A program made the position numbers and the translations under genes. 64,000 nt of DNA from Malacoraja senta (lineage: Eukaryota). This document shows positions 17,050 to 60,369 of the stretch, in pieces. The stretch covers positions 2,978,001 to 3,042,000 of the forward strand of contig CM075993.1 of NCBI GenBank assembly GCA_038087875.1. The letters run 5' to 3'. How positions within the stretch are numbered: the first letter of the stretch is position 1; every line of letters begins with the position of its first letter. The notes beneath the pieces were generated by a model. It saw nothing but the letters and a program-made list of their open reading frames with translations. It did no database searches and had not been told where the DNA came from.

Positions 17050-17550
17050 CCCATTCTCCTGCCTTCTCCCCATGACCCCTGACACCCGTACTAATCAAGA
17101 ATCTATCTATCTCTGCCTTGAAAATATCCATCGACTTGGACTCCACAGCCTTCTGTGGCAATTAATCCCACAGATTCACCACCCTCTGATGAATGAGAGG
17201 GAGAGTTGCTCTTCAGGTTCATATTAAATCTTGCCCCTCTCACTTTAAACGCGCGTCCACTGGTTTCACGCTTCCTTTACCCTGGGTAAAGGATTCTGTG
17301 GCTTCCCCCATCTAATCCCCTCATCAATTGATAAACCTTTACAAGGCGGTCACGGTGGGGCAGCGGTAGAGTTGCTGCCTTACAGCGCTTGCAGCTCCGG
17401 AGACCAGGGTTCGATCCTGACTACGGGTGCTGTCTGTACGGAGTTTGTACCTTCTCCCCGTGACCACATGGGATTTTCCCCGACATCTTCTCCAAAGACG
17501 TGCAGGTACATGGATTAATTGGTTTGGTGTTTGTGTAAATTGTCCCTCGT

Positions 17551-17677
17551 GTGTGGCATGCACAGCCTAAAGTTGTAGGACAACTTGCTCTATTTGATCT
17601 TATTTGACTGCGCACGCCAGGTCGAATGCATTCGTCGAAACAGGGCGGTCCAAGTGAAGGTTGCAATCTCCCACCCC
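17551..17677 (-). mobile_element. HDV-like-ribozyme-headed short retroposon, copy C (tail lost)
   Basis: Homologous to 52877-53016 and 60237-60368. Confidence 0.85.
17624..17677 (-). ncRNA. HDV/CPEB3-like ribozyme motif, degenerate
   Basis: GGGGTGG GA GATTGCA ACC TTCACTT GGA CCGCCCT GT TTCGA CGAA TGCATTC; one mismatch each in P2 and P3. Confidence 0.65.
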
Positions 17678-51527: not shown

Positions 51528-52504
51528 GGCTGATCATCCCCAATCAGTACCCCGTTCCTGCCTTCTCCCCATATCCCCTGACTCCGCTATCTTTAAGAGC
51601 CCTATCTAGCTCTCTCTTGAAAGTATCCGGAGAACCGGCCTCCACCGCCCTCTGAGGCAGAGAATTCCACAGACTCACCACTCTCTGTGAGAGAAAGAGA
51701 GTCTTTAGAGTGTGGGAGGAAACCGAAGATCTTGGAGAAAACCCGCGCAGGTCACGGGGAGAACGTGCAGACTCCGTAGTGAGGATCGGACCCGGGTCTC
51801 TGGCGCTGTGAGGCAGCAACTCTACCGCTGCGCCACCGTGCCGCCCTTGGATATGTCTTCAGGTTATTCCATCCTTATATTTGCCTTCTTACATTTGATT
51901 TGATCTTTCAATTATATTAACTGCATTATCTAAACATTGACTGGACTGTTTTTATCCCATTAACCTGATTTAAGTCTCCACTTTCATTCCATACTTGGTA
52001 TTGGAATGACATACATTTAGTTGCCTCATATGCAATTTTTAACGTCTGTCTATATTAACTTAATTCACCATTTGCTAATTCAGCTGGGTAACTTTGGCTT
52101 TTATGTAAGCATTCCTGGGGCTTTGCGAGCAAGGCCAGAATGTTTTGGTCTTCTTTGAAATGGTGCAGTCGGGATCAAACCCGGGTCTCTGGAGCTGTGA
52201 TGCAGGAACTCTACCGCTGCACCACTGTGCTGCCCACATGTAAGTGTTGACAAGCCTTTAAGATCTGAGTATAACATAGGCAAGACTAAAAGATACATTG
52301 CTGTTCCTAGATCATAGGGTCGTTAAGCTCCACTTGGGGAAAGGGGAAAAAGCAGGGCAATGAGATTGAAGTTCCACAAGGAACTAACGCAAACTGGATG
52401 GACTGAATGGCCTCTTAGTTATAATGTCAAACAGTGCGGAAACAGGCCATTAGGCCCAACCTGCCCACGCTGACCAAGATGCCCCATCTACACTACTGCC
52501 AACT

Positions 52505-52802
52505 TTAGTTTAGTTTAGAGATACAGCGTGGAAAAAGGCCCTTCAGCCCATCGAGTCCGTGCCGACCACCGATCCCCGCACATTAACACCATCCTACACC
52601 CACTGGGGACAATTTTTACATTTACCAAGCCAATTATCCTACGAACCTGTACGTCTTTGGAGGCCGAAGATCTCGGAGAAAACCCATGCACGGGGTCACG
52701 GGGAGAACGTACAAACTCCGTACGGACAGCACCCGTGGTCGGGATCGAACCCGGATCTCTGACGCTGTGAGGCAGCAACTCTACCGCTGCGCCACCGTGC
52801 CA
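52505..52802 (-). mobile_element. V-SINE (HE1-like)
   Basis: Reverse-strand full structure. Confidence 0.88.
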
Positions 52803-52876
52803 CCCAGTTGGGTGACAGAAAGCCACTTAACTTTGGCCCTGCTTAAGGACCTGCCCCACTTGGACGTCATTTGCGC

Positions 52877-52930
52877 TGGGTGGGAGATTGCAACCTTCAC
52901 GTGGTCTGCCCTGTTTCGACGAATGCAATC
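52877..52930 (+). ncRNA. Minimal HDV/CPEB3-like self-cleaving ribozyme motif
   Basis: P1 (T)GGGTGG/CTGCCCT, P2 GATTGCA/TGCAATC, P3 ACC/GGT, L3 TTCACGT, J4/2 CGAA with the candidate catalytic C at 52920. Confidence 0.8.
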
Positions 52931-53016
52931 AACCTGGCGTGCACAGTCAAATAAGATCAAATAGAACAAGTTGTCCTGCAACTATTTGCTGTGCACGCCA
53001 TACGCAAGAAGAGGAA
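52877..53016 (+). mobile_element. HDV-like-ribozyme-headed short retroposon, copy A
   Basis: 11-bp TSD GTCATTTGCGC (52866-52876 and 53017-53027); AAGAAGAGGAA tail; no tRNA A/B boxes. Confidence 0.9.
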
Positions 53017-53775
53017 GTCATTTGCGCGTCACGCAGATGGCGCGCAAAGAGTTTGTACATCACAAAATCCAGGGGGGCCGTGCGCGACCGCGTGTCATTG
53101 CCTACATCACCACGCACCATACGTCGTGCAGCGTGACGCGTAAATGATGACGCGTAAATGATGACGCGTAAATTACGCGCAAATGACGCCCAAATGGGAC
53201 AGGCCCTTACGCAGGGCCAAAATTAAGTGGCAAAGTTAATGCGAAACTTCACATCTCTTCAGTTTCGTCAATCTCCCGATTGGAATTACTCCCTGGGAGA
53301 ACTGTTGACGGCAACATCTGCCTCTTCTGAGATGGCTGCTTCCTATTAAGCTGACGCGTTGAAGTAACTCCTTAAAAATGTTCCCATTAGCTTGCTCCCT
53401 GGGGAATGATAAAATAATAAGCCTGCGCTTTTCTGAGTTGGGTCAGTGGTACCAATTTAAACAATGTTCTCTTCCTTCCAATTTTGGAAAAGCTCTACCT
53501 AAAAAAAGAACTAATTGGCAATTAATTTCACTGCAGTTGGGTGGATCCCTGTGTAAATTACGTACCACGTTAGCTCATGGCCCAGCCATGCATTGTGGAT
53601 TTCTTTGGAAGGTCTATCGTAGCTGTTTCAATGGATGTTCCGTCACTCTGTCCTTTGCTCGTCGTTGACTCAAGTTAGATGGACTCATGGAGTGACACAG
53701 CGCAGAAACGGGCCCTTCGGCCCATCGTGTCCACACCGATCCTCAAGAACTCACCTTCACTCATCCCATCTGTTA

Positions 53776-57500: not shown

Positions 57501-57538
57501 CAACTTTAGGCTGTGCACGCCATACGCTAGGAGAAGAA
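57501..57538 (+). mobile_element. 5'-truncated copy of the ribozyme-headed retroposon
   Basis: CAACTTTAGGCTGTGCACGCCATACGCTAGGAGAAGAA matches the family 3' end. Confidence 0.75.
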
Positions 57539-57801
57539 CTCTCTCTTGAATATTTGTGTCTATATTCAAAAATGTTTTCAAAATGGATGGTCTTTGTTCT
57601 GAGCAGCCATGACCCACAAATAACAGTATCAATATTAAACTAAATGTTTAATGTAATTGCACGCTTCGTTGTGCTGTTTGGTGTCAATATTTAATTAAAA
57701 CTTAATTGAATTATAGAAATTGACAGCAGTGTTTCCATGAAAACAGAAGAAAATGTTCTCAGACTTATTCCACCCTCAGGCCTTGCTCTGTAAGCCTCTT
57801 A

Positions 57802-58023
57802 AGGGCCTGTCCCACTTGGCCGTCATTTGCGCGTCACGCAGATGGCGGGCGAAGATTTTGTACATCACAAACTACTGCGACACCGCGCGCAGCCACGAGT
57901 CACTGCCCATGTCATCACGCACCATGCGCGCATCGCGTGCGTGCATCATGACGGGTGAATGATGTCGCGTAAATGATGTCGCGTAAATTAATGCTCAAAC
58001 CACGGCCAAGTGGGACAGGCACT
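57802..58023. mobile_element. Harbinger-like MITE
   Basis: TIR AGGGCCTGTCCCACTTGGCCGT / ACGGCCAAGTGGGACAGGCACT with TTA on both flanks. Confidence 0.85.
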
Positions 58024-58068: not shown

Positions 58069-58931
<863 letters not shown>

Positions 58932-60236: not shown

Positions 60237-60368
60237 TTCTTCTTGCGTATGGCGTGCACAGCCTAAAGTTGTAGGCCAACTTGTTCTATTTGATCTTATC
60301 TGTGCACGTCAGGTTGATTGCATTAGTCGAAACAGGGTGGACCGCGTGAAGGTTGCAATCTCCCACCC
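60237..60368 (-). mobile_element. HDV-like-ribozyme-headed short retroposon, copy B
   Basis: 12-bp TSD ACCCCATTCTCC (60225-60236 and 60369-60380); (GAA)n tail. Confidence 0.9.
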
Positions 60369-60369
60369 A
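60316..60369 (-). ncRNA. Minimal HDV-like ribozyme motif
   Basis: (T)GGGTGG GA GATTGCA ACC TTCACGC GGT CCACCCT GT TTCGA CTAA TGCAATC. Confidence 0.8.

What the first reader, a model, noticed from the sequence alone, without database searches (positions are those of the whole stretch)
52877..53016. A 140-bp SINE-like retroposon whose 5' head is a minimal HDV/CPEB3-like ribozyme
Seen: the insertion has an exact 11-bp TSD (GTCATTTGCGC), and a sibling host MITE at 57802 carries that sequence only once. It ends in a GAA-type tail and has no tRNA A/B boxes. Its first 54 nt read P1 (T)GGGTGG, GA, P2 GATTGCA, P3 ACC, L3 TTCACGT, P3' GGT, P1' CTGCCCT, GT, TTCGA, CGAA, P2' TGCAATC. Established: this order is the nested double pseudoknot of HDV-like ribozymes. 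TTCACGT, the GT after P1' and J4/2 CGAA match the mammalian CPEB3 ribozyme as I recall it. HDV-like ribozymes process the 5' ends of R2, RTE and L1Tc retrotransposons and of some non-autonomous derivatives. Inference: this is a promoter-less retroposon that cuts itself out of host read-through transcripts and borrows LINE machinery, with P4 reduced to ~5 nt. I cannot confirm that it is undescribed. Caveat: position 1 is T here rather than the canonical G.
Basis: partly seen in the sequence, partly recalled or inferred. Interest (0 to 1): 0.92.

Follow-up and report, generated by a model that had tools for sequence, protein, structure and literature searches.

The report
Retroposon headed by HDV-like ribozyme
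A 140-base mobile element, present in thousands of copies in this animal genome, begins with a miniature HDV-type self-cutting RNA fold that it shares with its parent LINE, which is a known way for retrotransposons to free their RNA from host transcripts.

Summary
Window 52877-53016 is one copy of a ~140-nt retroposon. The exact 21-mer of its head core occurs 5,225 times in the 1.94-Gb genome. Copies have 7-15-bp target-site duplications and a (GAA)n tail.

The family's first base is G, not T. In a sample anchored on the 3' end, 44 of 60 copies start at that G. In 34 of 54 near-full-length copies the duplication abuts it directly.

Nucleotides 1-54 fit the HDV-like nested double pseudoknot: a 7-bp P1 with G1.U, a 7-bp P2, a 3-bp P3, a CPEB3-identical L3, C44 in J4/2, and a 5-nt linker instead of P4. 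A descriptor of that fold hit 0 times in 3.84 Mb of shuffled sequence and hit only family heads in 286 kb of real DNA. The two best Rfam matches are HDV-type ribozymes, but both fall far below threshold.

I found the partner, a ~3.1-kb endonuclease/reverse-transcriptase LINE of RTE-like build. It has the same head at its 5' end and the same 46 nt plus tail at its 3' end. The "SINE" is therefore an internal-deletion derivative, like R2 SIDEs or NARTc.

Cleavage is inferred. No RNA data or covariation support it. I rate it a new member of a known kind.

The parts
52866..52876 (+). left target-site duplication GTCATTTGCGC
   Evidence: It is identical to 53017-53027 and occurs once in the empty sibling site near 57826.
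52877..53016 (+). one copy of the ~140-nt non-autonomous retroposon (ribozyme head + spacer + LINE 3' module + tail)
   Evidence: One search scored 40 copies at 95-100% identity. One search counted 5,225 exact copies of the head 21-mer in the genome.
52877..52930 (+). 54-nt HDV-like ribozyme fold. P1 52877-83/52906-12; J1/2 52884-85; P2 52886-92/52924-30; P3 52893-95/52903-05; L3 52896-902; P1.1 C52898-G52913; linker in place of P4 52915-19; J4/2 52920-23.
   Evidence: Descriptor scans. Rfam global alignment to HDV-F-prausnitzii covers exactly nt 1-54 of a sibling copy. The nested MFE gives P1+P3 and P2.
52877..52877 (+). predicted cleavage site, 5' of this base. It is T in this copy and G in the family.
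   Evidence: G in 74 of 86 copies. The duplication abuts this base in 34 of 54 sampled copies.
52920..52920 (+). predicted catalytic cytosine (family nt 44), first base of J4/2
   Evidence: C in 77 of 86 retroposon copies and in 9 of 9 LINE heads (alignment).
52936..52999 (+). 3' domain hairpin. Arm GGCGTGCACAG at 52936-46 pairs with arm CTGTGCACGCC at 52989-99.
   Evidence: Sequence. The MFE of a sibling copy forms a 14-bp stem here, z = -2.25.
52971..53016 (+). module taken from the partner LINE's 3' end: its last codons, its stop codon (family nt 108-110), a ~22-nt 3' UTR and the (GAA)n tail
   Evidence: The LINE ORF ends ...STLDLQL* inside CAACTTTAG, followed by GCTGTGCACGCCATACGC.
53017..53027 (+). 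right target-site duplication
60237..60369 (-). second full-length copy in the window. It is the CCACCC / CTAA variant and is flanked by the 11-bp duplication GGAGAATGGGG (60370-80 and 60226-36).
   Evidence: It is also a relaxed-descriptor hit.
17546..17677 (-). third, older copy. It begins GGGGTGG and sits inside another repeat. P3 and P2 each carry one mismatch.
57501..57538 (+). 5'-truncated copy holding only the 3' module. It could derive from the retroposon or from the LINE.

Best explanation
The insert is one copy of a short, internally deleted derivative of an RTE-like LINE. It consists of the LINE's 5' end (about 80 nt) joined through a short spacer to the LINE's last 46 nt and its (GAA)n tail.

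The first 54 nt of both the LINE and the derivative fold as a minimal, P4-less HDV-like ribozyme.

Proposed mechanism:
1. Source copies are transcribed as part of longer host or read-through transcripts (inferred).
2. The head folds into the nested double pseudoknot. Using C44 of J4/2 and a divalent ion, it cuts the phosphodiester immediately 5' of G1 without needing any upstream sequence. This is inferred by analogy with the HDV ribozyme family.
3. The freed RNA starts at G1. Its 3' module is recognised in trans by the LINE's endonuclease/reverse transcriptase. That the 3' modules are the same sequence is shown. That the protein recognises the module is inferred.
4. Target-primed reverse transcription runs to the 5' terminal G and leaves 7-15-bp target-site duplications (shown).

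The window copy itself is a dead insertion. It carries T at +1 and lies inside a MITE-like element.
For: **Family and ends**
- The head 21-mer occurs exactly 5,225 times and the 3' 21-mer 3,184 times in the genome.
- I took the first 60 places on contig C1 that carry the 3' 21-mer, a sample blind to the 5' end. Alignments start at nt 1 in 44, nt 2 in 8, nt 3 in 1 and nt 5 in 1. The remaining 6 are truncated or other.
- Of the 54 near-full-length copies, 50 have a duplication of 7-15 bp (mode 11-12). In 34 it abuts nt 1 exactly. Two pairs of these loci are segmental duplicates.
- In contigs of four public runs, unlike flanks begin at G1 in 28, 44, 58 and 2 contigs. They begin one base upstream in 4, 15, 15 and 1 contigs.

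**Fold**
- The strict descriptor hit 23 of 30 copies at nt 1 and hit nothing in 3.84 Mb of shuffles.
- In 286,250 bases of real loci, all 52 hits were family heads.
- 94.2% of pair cells form standard pairs, against 19-44% when the 3' partners are slid by 1 to 3 columns.
- The nested MFE of the 54-mer is exactly P1+P3. In the 140-mer the MFE forms P2.
- Of 4,227 Rfam families, the two best matches on a G1 copy are HDV-F-prausnitzii (14.4 bits, E 0.57) and CPEB3 (12.4 bits, E 0.36). The HDV-F-prausnitzii model aligns end to end onto exactly nt 1-54 with no non-canonical pair flagged.

**Partner LINE**
- The LINE ORF ends inside the shared 3' module.
- The first-look search gave at least 541 candidate LINE 3' ends.
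- Pfam finds Exo_endo_phos_2 at 34.6 bits and RVT_1 at 48.1 and 52.9 bits, all above their cut-offs.
- Sense-oriented LINE 5' ends carry the same head, followed by LINE-specific 5' UTR.
- Between the LINE and retroposon majorities, nt 9-54 differ at 2 of 46 positions. These are G32>A, which turns U5.G into U5-A, and G45>U, the free N of J4/2. Both leave the fold intact. Nt 55-80 differ at 6 of 26 positions (Fisher p = 0.023).

**Literature (passages read)**
- RTE, baggins, R2 and L1Tc elements use 5' HDV-like ribozymes to leave co-transcripts (PMC6765202).
- About 50 nt suffice for the minimal double pseudoknot (PMC4870747).
- Minimal variants lack P4 (bioRxiv 10.1101/2023.06.13.544163).
Against: - No cleavage assay and no RNA evidence exist for this element.
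- Rfam scores are far below the gathering thresholds (35 and 44 bits), and the E-values of 0.36-0.57 are not significant on their own. On a 501-nt stretch no HDV-type hit appeared at E<=10.
- There is no covariation. One pair shows a change on both sides against 0.8 expected, and 443 of 500 shuffles reach the observed percentage of paired cells. The family is too young for this test, and the frequent variants at nt 31/32 are CpG transitions that happen to keep wobble pairing.
- The nested MFE of the 54-mer is no better than shuffles (z +0.92). Pseudoknots are not modelled by that tool.
- P1.1 has one G-C pair plus a U.U mismatch, and P4 is absent, so activity could be weak.
- I wrote the descriptor after seeing the element, although from canonical features.
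- A sharp 5' end is equally expected from a fixed transcription start.
- Only one LINE 5' end complete to nt 1 was seen (L145), and it reads TGGG rather than GGGG.
- Only 21 of 54 sampled copies still keep the whole fold.
Confidence: 0.75

Rival explanations
1. The conserved head is a structured 5' UTR module of the LINE with another job, such as an internal promoter, a translation or reverse-transcriptase-binding element, or 5'-3' pairing. It does not self-cleave, and G1 is a transcription start. The HDV-like fold is then a non-catalytic look-alike or a decayed former ribozyme.
For: - A sharp 5' end fits a transcription start as well as a cleavage site.
- There is no covariation, no Rfam threshold hit, no P4 and a weak P1.1.
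- In L1Tc the same 77 nt act both as promoter and as ribozyme (abstract of PMC3383444 in the listing), so 5' heads can have other roles.
- The 5' part of the retroposon also pairs with its 3' module in a 14-bp stem.
Against: - The exact HDV topology, with G1.U, C at the J4/2 start and N-R-A before P2', did not occur once in 3.84 Mb of shuffles or in 286 kb of real DNA outside the family.
- The only two fixed LINE/retroposon differences in nt 9-54 are fold-neutral.
- The best Rfam alignment spans exactly nt 1-54.
Confidence: 0.17
2. It is an ordinary Pol III SINE derived from tRNA, 5S, 7SL or snRNA with an internal promoter, and the ribozyme-like fold is a coincidence.
For: It is short, high in copy number, and has no run of four T in the family sequence.
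Against: - ARAGORN finds no tRNA.
- Rfam gives no tRNA, 5S, 7SL or snRNA hit at E<=10, even on 67-71-nt stretches.
- The same head starts a ~3.1-kb protein-coding LINE, which is not a Pol III product.
Confidence: 0.03
3. It is a chance resemblance in a junk repeat, with no functional head at all.
For: The window copy itself has T at +1 and is a dead insertion. The nested folding energy is unremarkable.
Against: - Family-wide precision of the 5' end.
- Conservation of the head between the LINE and its derivative.
- Zero background for the descriptor.
Confidence: 0.02

Closest known systems
R2 SIDEs and R2/R1 hybrid SIDEs of Drosophila (Eickbush & Eickbush 2012, PMC3414825; abstract and outline read)
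   Same: Both are non-autonomous elements made of a LINE's 5' HDV-like ribozyme joined to a LINE 3' end. Both are spread by the LINE's target-primed reverse transcription and have target-site duplications.
   Different: SIDEs sit at specific rDNA sites and are rare. This family is dispersed, with 5,225 exact head 21-mers in the genome. Its partner is an AP-endonuclease LINE of RTE-like build, its ribozyme lacks P4, and the host is an animal genome of vertebrate size.
L1Tc and its truncated form NARTc in Trypanosoma cruzi (PMC3185411, PMC3383444; listings and abstracts only)
   Same: An HDV-like ribozyme occupies the first tens of nucleotides of both the LINE and its non-autonomous derivative. 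Target-site duplications are about 12 bp.
   Different: The L1Tc head is 77 nt and also acts as a promoter. It belongs to a different LINE clade (ingi) and a protist host. No promoter activity has been tested for the present head.
RTE and baggins retrotransposons with 5' HDV-like ribozymes (Ruminski et al. 2011, known here only through passages of the review PMC6765202; the original was not held)
   Same: These are promoter-less AP-endonuclease LINEs freed from co-transcripts by a 5' HDV-like ribozyme. The present partner LINE has the RTE hallmarks I recall: about 3.1 kb, EN+RT, a very short 3' UTR and a simple-repeat tail.
   Different: Clade membership of the present LINE was not tested by phylogeny. 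I could not check whether those ribozymes have P4 or whether any vertebrate example is described.
Minimal (P4-less) HDV-like ribozymes from metagenomes, and theta ribozymes of gut phages (bioRxiv 10.1101/2023.06.13.544163, passages; PMC10879173, listing only)
   Same: Both have the double pseudoknot of about 50 nt with the P4 domain missing.
   Different: Those come from metagenomes and phages and act next to tRNAs or have unknown roles. This one sits at the 5' end of an animal retrotransposon.
Mammalian CPEB3 ribozyme (Rfam RF00622)
   Same: The L3 (UUCACGU) is identical, as are GU after P1' (one G-C P1.1 pair plus U.U) and CGAA in J4/2. Both start GGGG (consensus printed).
   Different: CPEB3 is single-copy, intronic and has a full P4. 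This element scores 12.4 bits against a threshold of 35. P3 and part of L3 match the bacterial HDV-F-prausnitzii consensus equally well. The likeness may therefore reflect constraint on the fold rather than shared descent.
Rex3, the RTE-family LINE of teleosts (review PMC6274825, passages)
   Same: The stop codon lies a few nucleotides before a tail that begins with GAA repeats. It encodes EN + RT and has target-site duplications.
   Different: The Rex3 tail continues as GATG repeats and its 3' UTR is 3 nt. Here the 3' UTR is about 22 nt and the tail is (GAA)n. That review has no occurrence of the word ribozyme.

Membership tests
HDV-like (delta-like) self-cleaving ribozymes | Nested double pseudoknot in the order P1-P2-P3-L3-P3'-P1'-(P1.1)-P4-J4/2-P2' | tested here: met
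   The descriptor hit 23 of 30 copies at nt 1 and nothing in 3.84 Mb of shuffles. All 52 hits in 286 kb of real DNA were family heads. 94.2% of pair cells are paired.
HDV-like (delta-like) self-cleaving ribozymes | 7-bp P1 closed by a G1.U wobble at the cleavage site | tested here: met
   G at nt 1 in 74 of 86 copies and T at nt 36 in 83 of 86. The window copy itself has T at nt 1, so it does not meet this feature.
HDV-like (delta-like) self-cleaving ribozymes | Catalytic C as the first base of J4/2, followed by N-R-A directly before P2' | tested here: met
   C44 in 77 of 86 copies, A46 in 84 of 86 and A47 in 84 of 86. J4/2 reads CGAA in the main retroposon type and CTAA in the LINE heads, 9 of 9.
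HDV-like (delta-like) self-cleaving ribozymes | P1.1 mini-helix between L3 and the bases after P1' | tested here: inconclusive
   One pair, C22-G37, is present in 62 of 64 rows. The second position is U.U, as in the CPEB3 consensus.
HDV-like (delta-like) self-cleaving ribozymes | P4 helix | tested here: not met
   Only the 5 nt UUCGA lie between G37U38 and C44. The literature says minimal variants lack P4, so P4 is not required for the fold.
HDV-like (delta-like) self-cleaving ribozymes | Score at or above the gathering threshold of an Rfam HDV-type model | tested here: not met
   RF02682 scored 14.4 bits against a threshold of 44. RF00622 scored 12.4 against 35. On the window copy the scores were 10.2 and 9.4 bits.
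HDV-like (delta-like) self-cleaving ribozymes | Compensatory base changes supporting the helices | tested here: inconclusive
   One pair shows a double change against 0.8 expected by shuffling. Copies are 91% identical per column, which is too little divergence for this test.
HDV-like (delta-like) self-cleaving ribozymes | Site-specific self-scission 5' of nt 1, abolished by C-to-U at the catalytic position | not testable with these tools
   This needs a bench assay.
Mammalian CPEB3 ribozyme (RF00622) | Single conserved copy in a CPEB3 intron, full P4, score of at least 35 bits | tested here: not met
   The element is a multi-copy retroposon, has no P4 and scores 12.4 bits. Only the core motifs match.
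Internally deleted non-autonomous LINE derivative (SIDE-like) | The 3' end is the partner LINE's 3' end | tested here: met
   Retroposon nt 95-140 match the LINE's last codons, stop codon, 3' UTR and tail in 29 LINE loci.
Internally deleted non-autonomous LINE derivative (SIDE-like) | The 5' end is the partner LINE's 5' end | tested here: met
   LINE 5' ends L145, L144 and L147 carry the head in sense orientation, followed by LINE-specific UTR and an endonuclease ORF. Six further head pieces are seen at LINE copies (L107, L108, L110, L112, L116, L124).
Internally deleted non-autonomous LINE derivative (SIDE-like) | Insertion by target-primed reverse transcription: target-site duplications and 5' truncations | tested here: met
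   50 of 54 copies have duplications of 7-15 bp. Truncated copies are present (window 57501-57538).
RTE clade of LINEs (the partner element) | Phylogenetic placement of the reverse transcriptase within RTE | not tested
   Only the architecture was checked: about 3.1 kb, EN + RT, a ~22-nt 3' UTR and a simple-repeat tail. The list of RTE hallmarks is recalled, not taken from a call.
Pol III SINEs derived from tRNA, 5S, 7SL or snRNA | Head similar to one of those RNAs, with internal promoter boxes | tested here: not met
   ARAGORN finds none. No such Rfam hit appears at E<=10.

The most novel reading that the evidence does not exclude
The CPEB3-type core (identical L3, P1.1 and J4/2) is not convergence. 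On this reading, heads of RTE-type retrotransposons like this one are the stock from which the mammalian CPEB3 intronic ribozyme was co-opted. P4-less 'minimal' HDV-like ribozymes, so far known from metagenomes and phages, would then be a working form inside vertebrate genomes. Roughly two in five of the more than 5,000 dispersed copies remain intact and could cut host transcripts.
Probability: 0.07. Interest if true: 0.85.

Novelty: new member of a known kind. Interest (0 to 1): 0.55.

Why it matters
If the head cleaves, this is a compact 54-nt natural HDV-type ribozyme without P4, with a clear biological role, in an animal genome of vertebrate size. Passages of a 2023 preprint state that the origin and function of minimal HDV-like ribozymes are still open, so the case would give them a eukaryotic setting.

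It would also add a high-copy example to the short list of ribozyme-headed deletion derivatives of LINEs (R2 SIDEs, NARTc).

There is a practical side. The exact head 21-mer occurs 5,225 times, and 21 of 54 sampled copies keep the whole fold. Thousands of potential self-cleavage sites may therefore lie in host introns and UTRs, and annotation and transcript analysis of these genomes should take them into account.

The concept itself is established, so a specialist would be interested rather than astonished.

Tried and rejected
- **RNA evidence.** No RNA holder was listed for the element. The four runs I laid were contigs, two of them probably DNA. They show element borders only, not RNA starts.
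- **Covariation.** There is none beyond shuffles.
- **Nested folding energy of the 54-mer.** It is not better than shuffles.
- **Looking for the LINE with 'not-this-base' patterns.** I placed such patterns next to retroposon segments. These returned only retroposon variants. One further hit was a solo head followed by unrelated sequence (L033/L043), with no + strand ORF of 100 aa or more directly downstream of the head.
- **How the LINE was actually found.** Two of the 60 3'-anchored samples turned out to be LINE 3' ends.
- **A candidate full-length LINE.** A head 21-mer and a 3' 21-mer lie 3,357 bases apart on C1. The 3' member is a truncated retroposon copy, so the spacing is a coincidence.
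- **Walking to a full-length LINE.** Only one 5' end complete to nt 1 was seen (L145), and no single intact LINE was read.
- **Clade of the LINE.** No phylogeny or protein homology search was run.
- **Prior description.** Four full-text searches found no ribozyme-headed retroposon of a vertebrate:
  - HDV-like ribozyme + SINE + retrotransposon gave 12 papers.
  - HDV-like + ribozyme + elasmobranch gave 0 papers.
  - HDV-like with shark, skate or cartilaginous-fish terms gave 15 listed papers, none containing 'HDV-like'.
  - HDV-like + RTE + ribozyme + non-LTR gave 8 papers.

  The key originals were not held: Webb 2009, Webb & Luptak 2011 and Ruminski 2011. Dfam and Repbase are not available here. 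The family may therefore already be catalogued.
- **The shark and skate search terms.** These rested on my recalled impression that the neighbouring tRNA-like SINE resembles an elasmobranch family. That was not tested.
- **The scan's own notes.** No look-alike was found by sequence and there were no notes for this genome. One note on an unrelated 140-nt repeat in another genome did not bear on this case.
Full report
**1. The observation**

Window 52877-53016 (+) is a 140-bp insertion. It is bracketed by the exact 11-bp duplication GTCATTTGCGC (52866-76 and 53017-27). A sibling of the host element near 57826 carries that 11-mer once, and its flanks align across the empty site. The host is a MITE-like element with terminal inverted repeats.

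The insert ends in AAGAAGAGGAA. Its first 54 nt can be drawn as follows:
- P1 52877-83 with 52906-12
- J1/2 GA
- P2 GATTGCA 52886-92 with TGCAATC 52924-30
- P3 ACC with GGT
- L3 TTCACGT
- GT, then TTCGA
- J4/2 CGAA, starting at C52920

Rfam's printed CPEB3 consensus confirms this.

**2. It is a family, and the family starts with G**

The window holds two more full-length copies (60237-60369 on the minus strand, with an 11-bp duplication, and 17546-17677 on the minus strand). It also holds a 5'-truncated one at 57501-57538.

The window's own assembly is 1.94 Gb in 6,182 contigs. A first-look search gave at least 1,628 candidates, and the 40 scored were 95-100% identical. The exact head 21-mer occurs 5,225 times and a 3' 21-mer 3,184 times.

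G is at nt 1 in 27 of the 30 best copies and in 74 of 86 distinct copies. The T in the window copy is a minority state.

Near-identical sequence is present in public runs labelled as nine coded organisms from 13 studies. Some of these may be the source of this assembly.

**3. Where copies begin**

To avoid bias, I took the first 60 places on contig C1 that carry the 3' 21-mer.
- Alignments begin at nt 1 in 44, nt 2 in 8, nt 3 in 1 and nt 5 in 1.
- The remaining six break down as follows:
  - three are 5'-truncated copies (starting at nt 20, 51 and 89);
  - one carries an internal deletion (alignment from nt 38, with the head upstream);
  - two (alignment from nt 95) later proved to be ends of the partner LINE.
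- Of the 54 near-full-length copies, 50 have a target-site duplication of 7-15 bp (mode 11-12). In 34 it abuts nt 1 with no extra base.
- Two pairs of these loci (L070/L071 and L083/L084) are segmental duplicates, so the independent counts are slightly lower.

Contigs of four public runs likewise switch to unrelated flanks at G1 (28, 44, 58 and 2 contigs) or one base before it (4, 15, 15 and 1).

**4. Is the fold more than chance?**

I wrote a descriptor from the canonical HDV features:
- 7-bp P1 with G1.U
- J1/2 of 0-4 nt
- P2 of 6-9 bp
- 3-bp Watson-Crick P3
- L3 of 7-8 nt, with C at its third place paired to the G after P1'
- 0-60 nt in place of P4
- C-N-R-A directly before P2'

It was written after I had seen the element. 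The results were:
- It hits 23 of 30 copies, always at element nt 1.
- It hits nothing in 3.84 Mb of dinucleotide shuffles of the window.
- In 286,250 bases of real loci, both strands, all 52 hits are family heads.
- Without the G1 requirement, its only hits in the window are the two better-preserved copies, at 52877 and 60369.

The nested MFE of the 54-mer is exactly P1+P3 and leaves both P2 strands free. In the 140-mer, P2 forms, next to a 14-bp 3' hairpin.

On a G1 copy, the two best of 4,227 Rfam families are both HDV-type:
- HDV-F-prausnitzii scores 14.4 bits (E 0.57). The model aligns end to end on exactly nt 1-54.
- CPEB3 scores 12.4 bits (E 0.36).

Both are far below their gathering scores of 44 and 35, so formal Rfam membership is not met. 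A missing P4 and unmodelled pseudoknots explain part of the deficit.

**5. Results against the ribozyme reading**

- On 64 distinct heads, 94.2% of pair cells form standard pairs, against 19-44% for slid partners. But there is no covariation: one double change against 0.8 expected, and 443 of 500 shuffles are as well paired.
- The common variants at nt 31 (C/T) and 32 (G/A) keep pairing with G6 and U5. They are also simply CpG transitions.
- The nested energy of the 54-mer is not better than shuffles (z +0.92).
- P1.1 has one G-C pair plus U.U.
- No RNA holder was listed and the laid runs were contigs, so nothing can be said about transcripts.

**6. The partner LINE**

Two of the 3'-anchored samples were not retroposon copies. 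Upstream of the shared ...CAACTTTAG|GCTGTGCACGCCATACGC... they carry an open reading frame ending ...QTIPHIVNDCPL...STLDLQL*. Its stop codon is the TAG at family nt 108-110. That 3' region gave at least 541 first-look candidates, and the 40 scored were 91-94% identical.

Longer copies encode reverse transcriptase (RVT_1, 48.1 and 52.9 bits). Further upstream they encode an AP-type endonuclease (Exo_endo_phos_2, 34.6 bits). All these scores are above their cut-offs.

From head to tail the element measures about 3.1 kb. This estimate comes from pieces of different copies, and no intact copy was read.

A very short 3' UTR (about 22 nt), a simple-repeat tail and a single EN+RT frame are the RTE build as I recall it. 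The teleost RTE relative Rex3 also has its stop codon just before GAA repeats (passages of PMC6274825). I did not run a phylogeny.

**7. The LINE has the same head**

A LINE-specific 5' UTR segment has only 21 matches in the genome. In sense-oriented 5' ends it is preceded by the head:
- L145 reads ...agtac|TGGGTGGGAGATTGCAACCTTCACGTGGTCCACCC...CTAATGCAATC... and then continues with LINE-specific sequence.
- L144 and L147 start at about head nt 9.
- L144 continues into the endonuclease frame.

The retroposon is therefore LINE nt 1 to about 80, plus a short spacer, plus the LINE's last 46 nt and tail. That makes it an internal-deletion derivative.

Between the LINE and retroposon majorities, nt 9-54 differ at 2 of 46 positions. 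G32>A makes U5-A out of U5.G, and G45>U is the free N of J4/2. Nt 55-80 differ at 6 of 26 positions (Fisher p = 0.023). This is modest evidence that the source elements kept the ribozyme core under constraint.

**8. Mechanism**

Shown by the data:
- the anatomy of the element
- its precise 5' end
- the target-site duplications
- the 5' and 3' modules shared with an EN/RT LINE

Inferred from the HDV-like family (passages of PMC6765202):
- Source copies are transcribed within longer RNAs.
- The head cleaves 5' of G1 with C44 as the catalytic base.
- The LINE protein recognises the 3' module in trans and copies the RNA up to G1.

I put this at 0.75. The main rival, at 0.17, is a non-cleaving structured 5' module with G1 as a transcription start. 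A Pol III SINE (0.03) is contradicted by the absence of any tRNA, 5S, 7SL or snRNA likeness and by the head's presence on a 3.1-kb coding LINE.

**9. Comparison with what is known**

It works like R2 SIDEs (abstract of PMC3414825), like L1Tc/NARTc (abstracts in the listing), and like the RTE and baggins elements summarised in PMC6765202.

It differs in several respects:
- It is dispersed and high in copy number.
- It lives in an animal genome of vertebrate size.
- It lacks P4, like the 'minimal' HDV-like ribozymes. [quoted passage not shown]

About 50 nt are said to suffice for the minimal fold (PMC4870747).

The CPEB3-like core is real, but P3 and part of L3 match a bacterial HDV-type consensus just as well. 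I therefore read the likeness as constraint on the fold, not as evidence of common descent.

**10. Novelty and verdict**

Four full-text searches found no description of such an element in a vertebrate. However, the key original papers were not held, and Dfam and Repbase could not be searched. The scan's own notes held no look-alike.

I rate it a new member of a known kind, with a P4-less twist, and give it an interest of about 0.55. The decisive test is a cleavage assay of a natural G1 copy with and without the C44-to-U change.

Noticed in passing
L107:541-599, L108 with L137 (inverted piece next to the LINE's truncated 5' end), L112:1364-1436, L116:1383-1453, L124:1313-1380: In 5 of 30 LINE 3'-anchored loci, a 5'-truncated LINE copy is joined head to head to an inverted piece of the LINE's own 5' end. 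The inverted piece covers head nt 5-19 up to nt 75 or more, and in L112 and L124 it runs at least 135 nt further. The inner ends all lie close to the RNA's 5' terminus and the outer ends vary. This looks like twin-priming-type 5' inversions that reach the very 5' end of the template.
   Followed up: partly
L033 / L043:620-674: A solo ribozyme head (nt 1-54, slightly mutated) is followed by unrelated sequence, in what looks like an intron (a GT donor-like site lies just upstream). No LINE or retroposon body follows it.
   Followed up: partly
window 52936-52999; L002:1558-1623: The retroposon's 5'-derived part and its LINE-3'-derived part pair in a 10-14-bp stem (GGCGTGCACAG with CTGTGCACGCC). 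In the LINE, the matching 5' and 3' UTR segments share only an 8-nt complementary core around the palindrome GTGCAC. The retroposon differs from the LINE at nt 59 and 61 in a way that lengthens the stem.
   Followed up: partly
window 52840-53215 and 57800-58020, with a further end near 58070: The host of the insertion is a MITE-like element of about 220 bp. It has terminal inverted repeats (GGCCTGTCCCACTTGG ... CCAAGTGGGACAGGC) and an internal tandem of GACGCGTAAATGAT units.
   Followed up: no
window 52500-52810 (minus strand): A longer SINE-like repeat lies directly upstream of the host MITE. It has a tRNA-like head, with a B-box-like GGTTCGATCCC on the minus strand. The same repeat hosts the older retroposon copy at 17546-17677 and appears beside several loci. 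ARAGORN and Rfam did not call it.
   Followed up: no
L018/L019, L028/L029, L070/L071, L083/L084: These pairs of retroposon loci have identical flanks. They are segmental duplications (or assembly duplicates) that carry a copy along, so copy counts slightly overstate the number of independent insertions.
   Followed up: no
L136:1602-1695 and L136:1695 onward: This LINE copy has an internal deletion of about 0.9 kb. Next to it lies an inverted piece of the LINE 5' UTR that lacks the head.
   Followed up: partly
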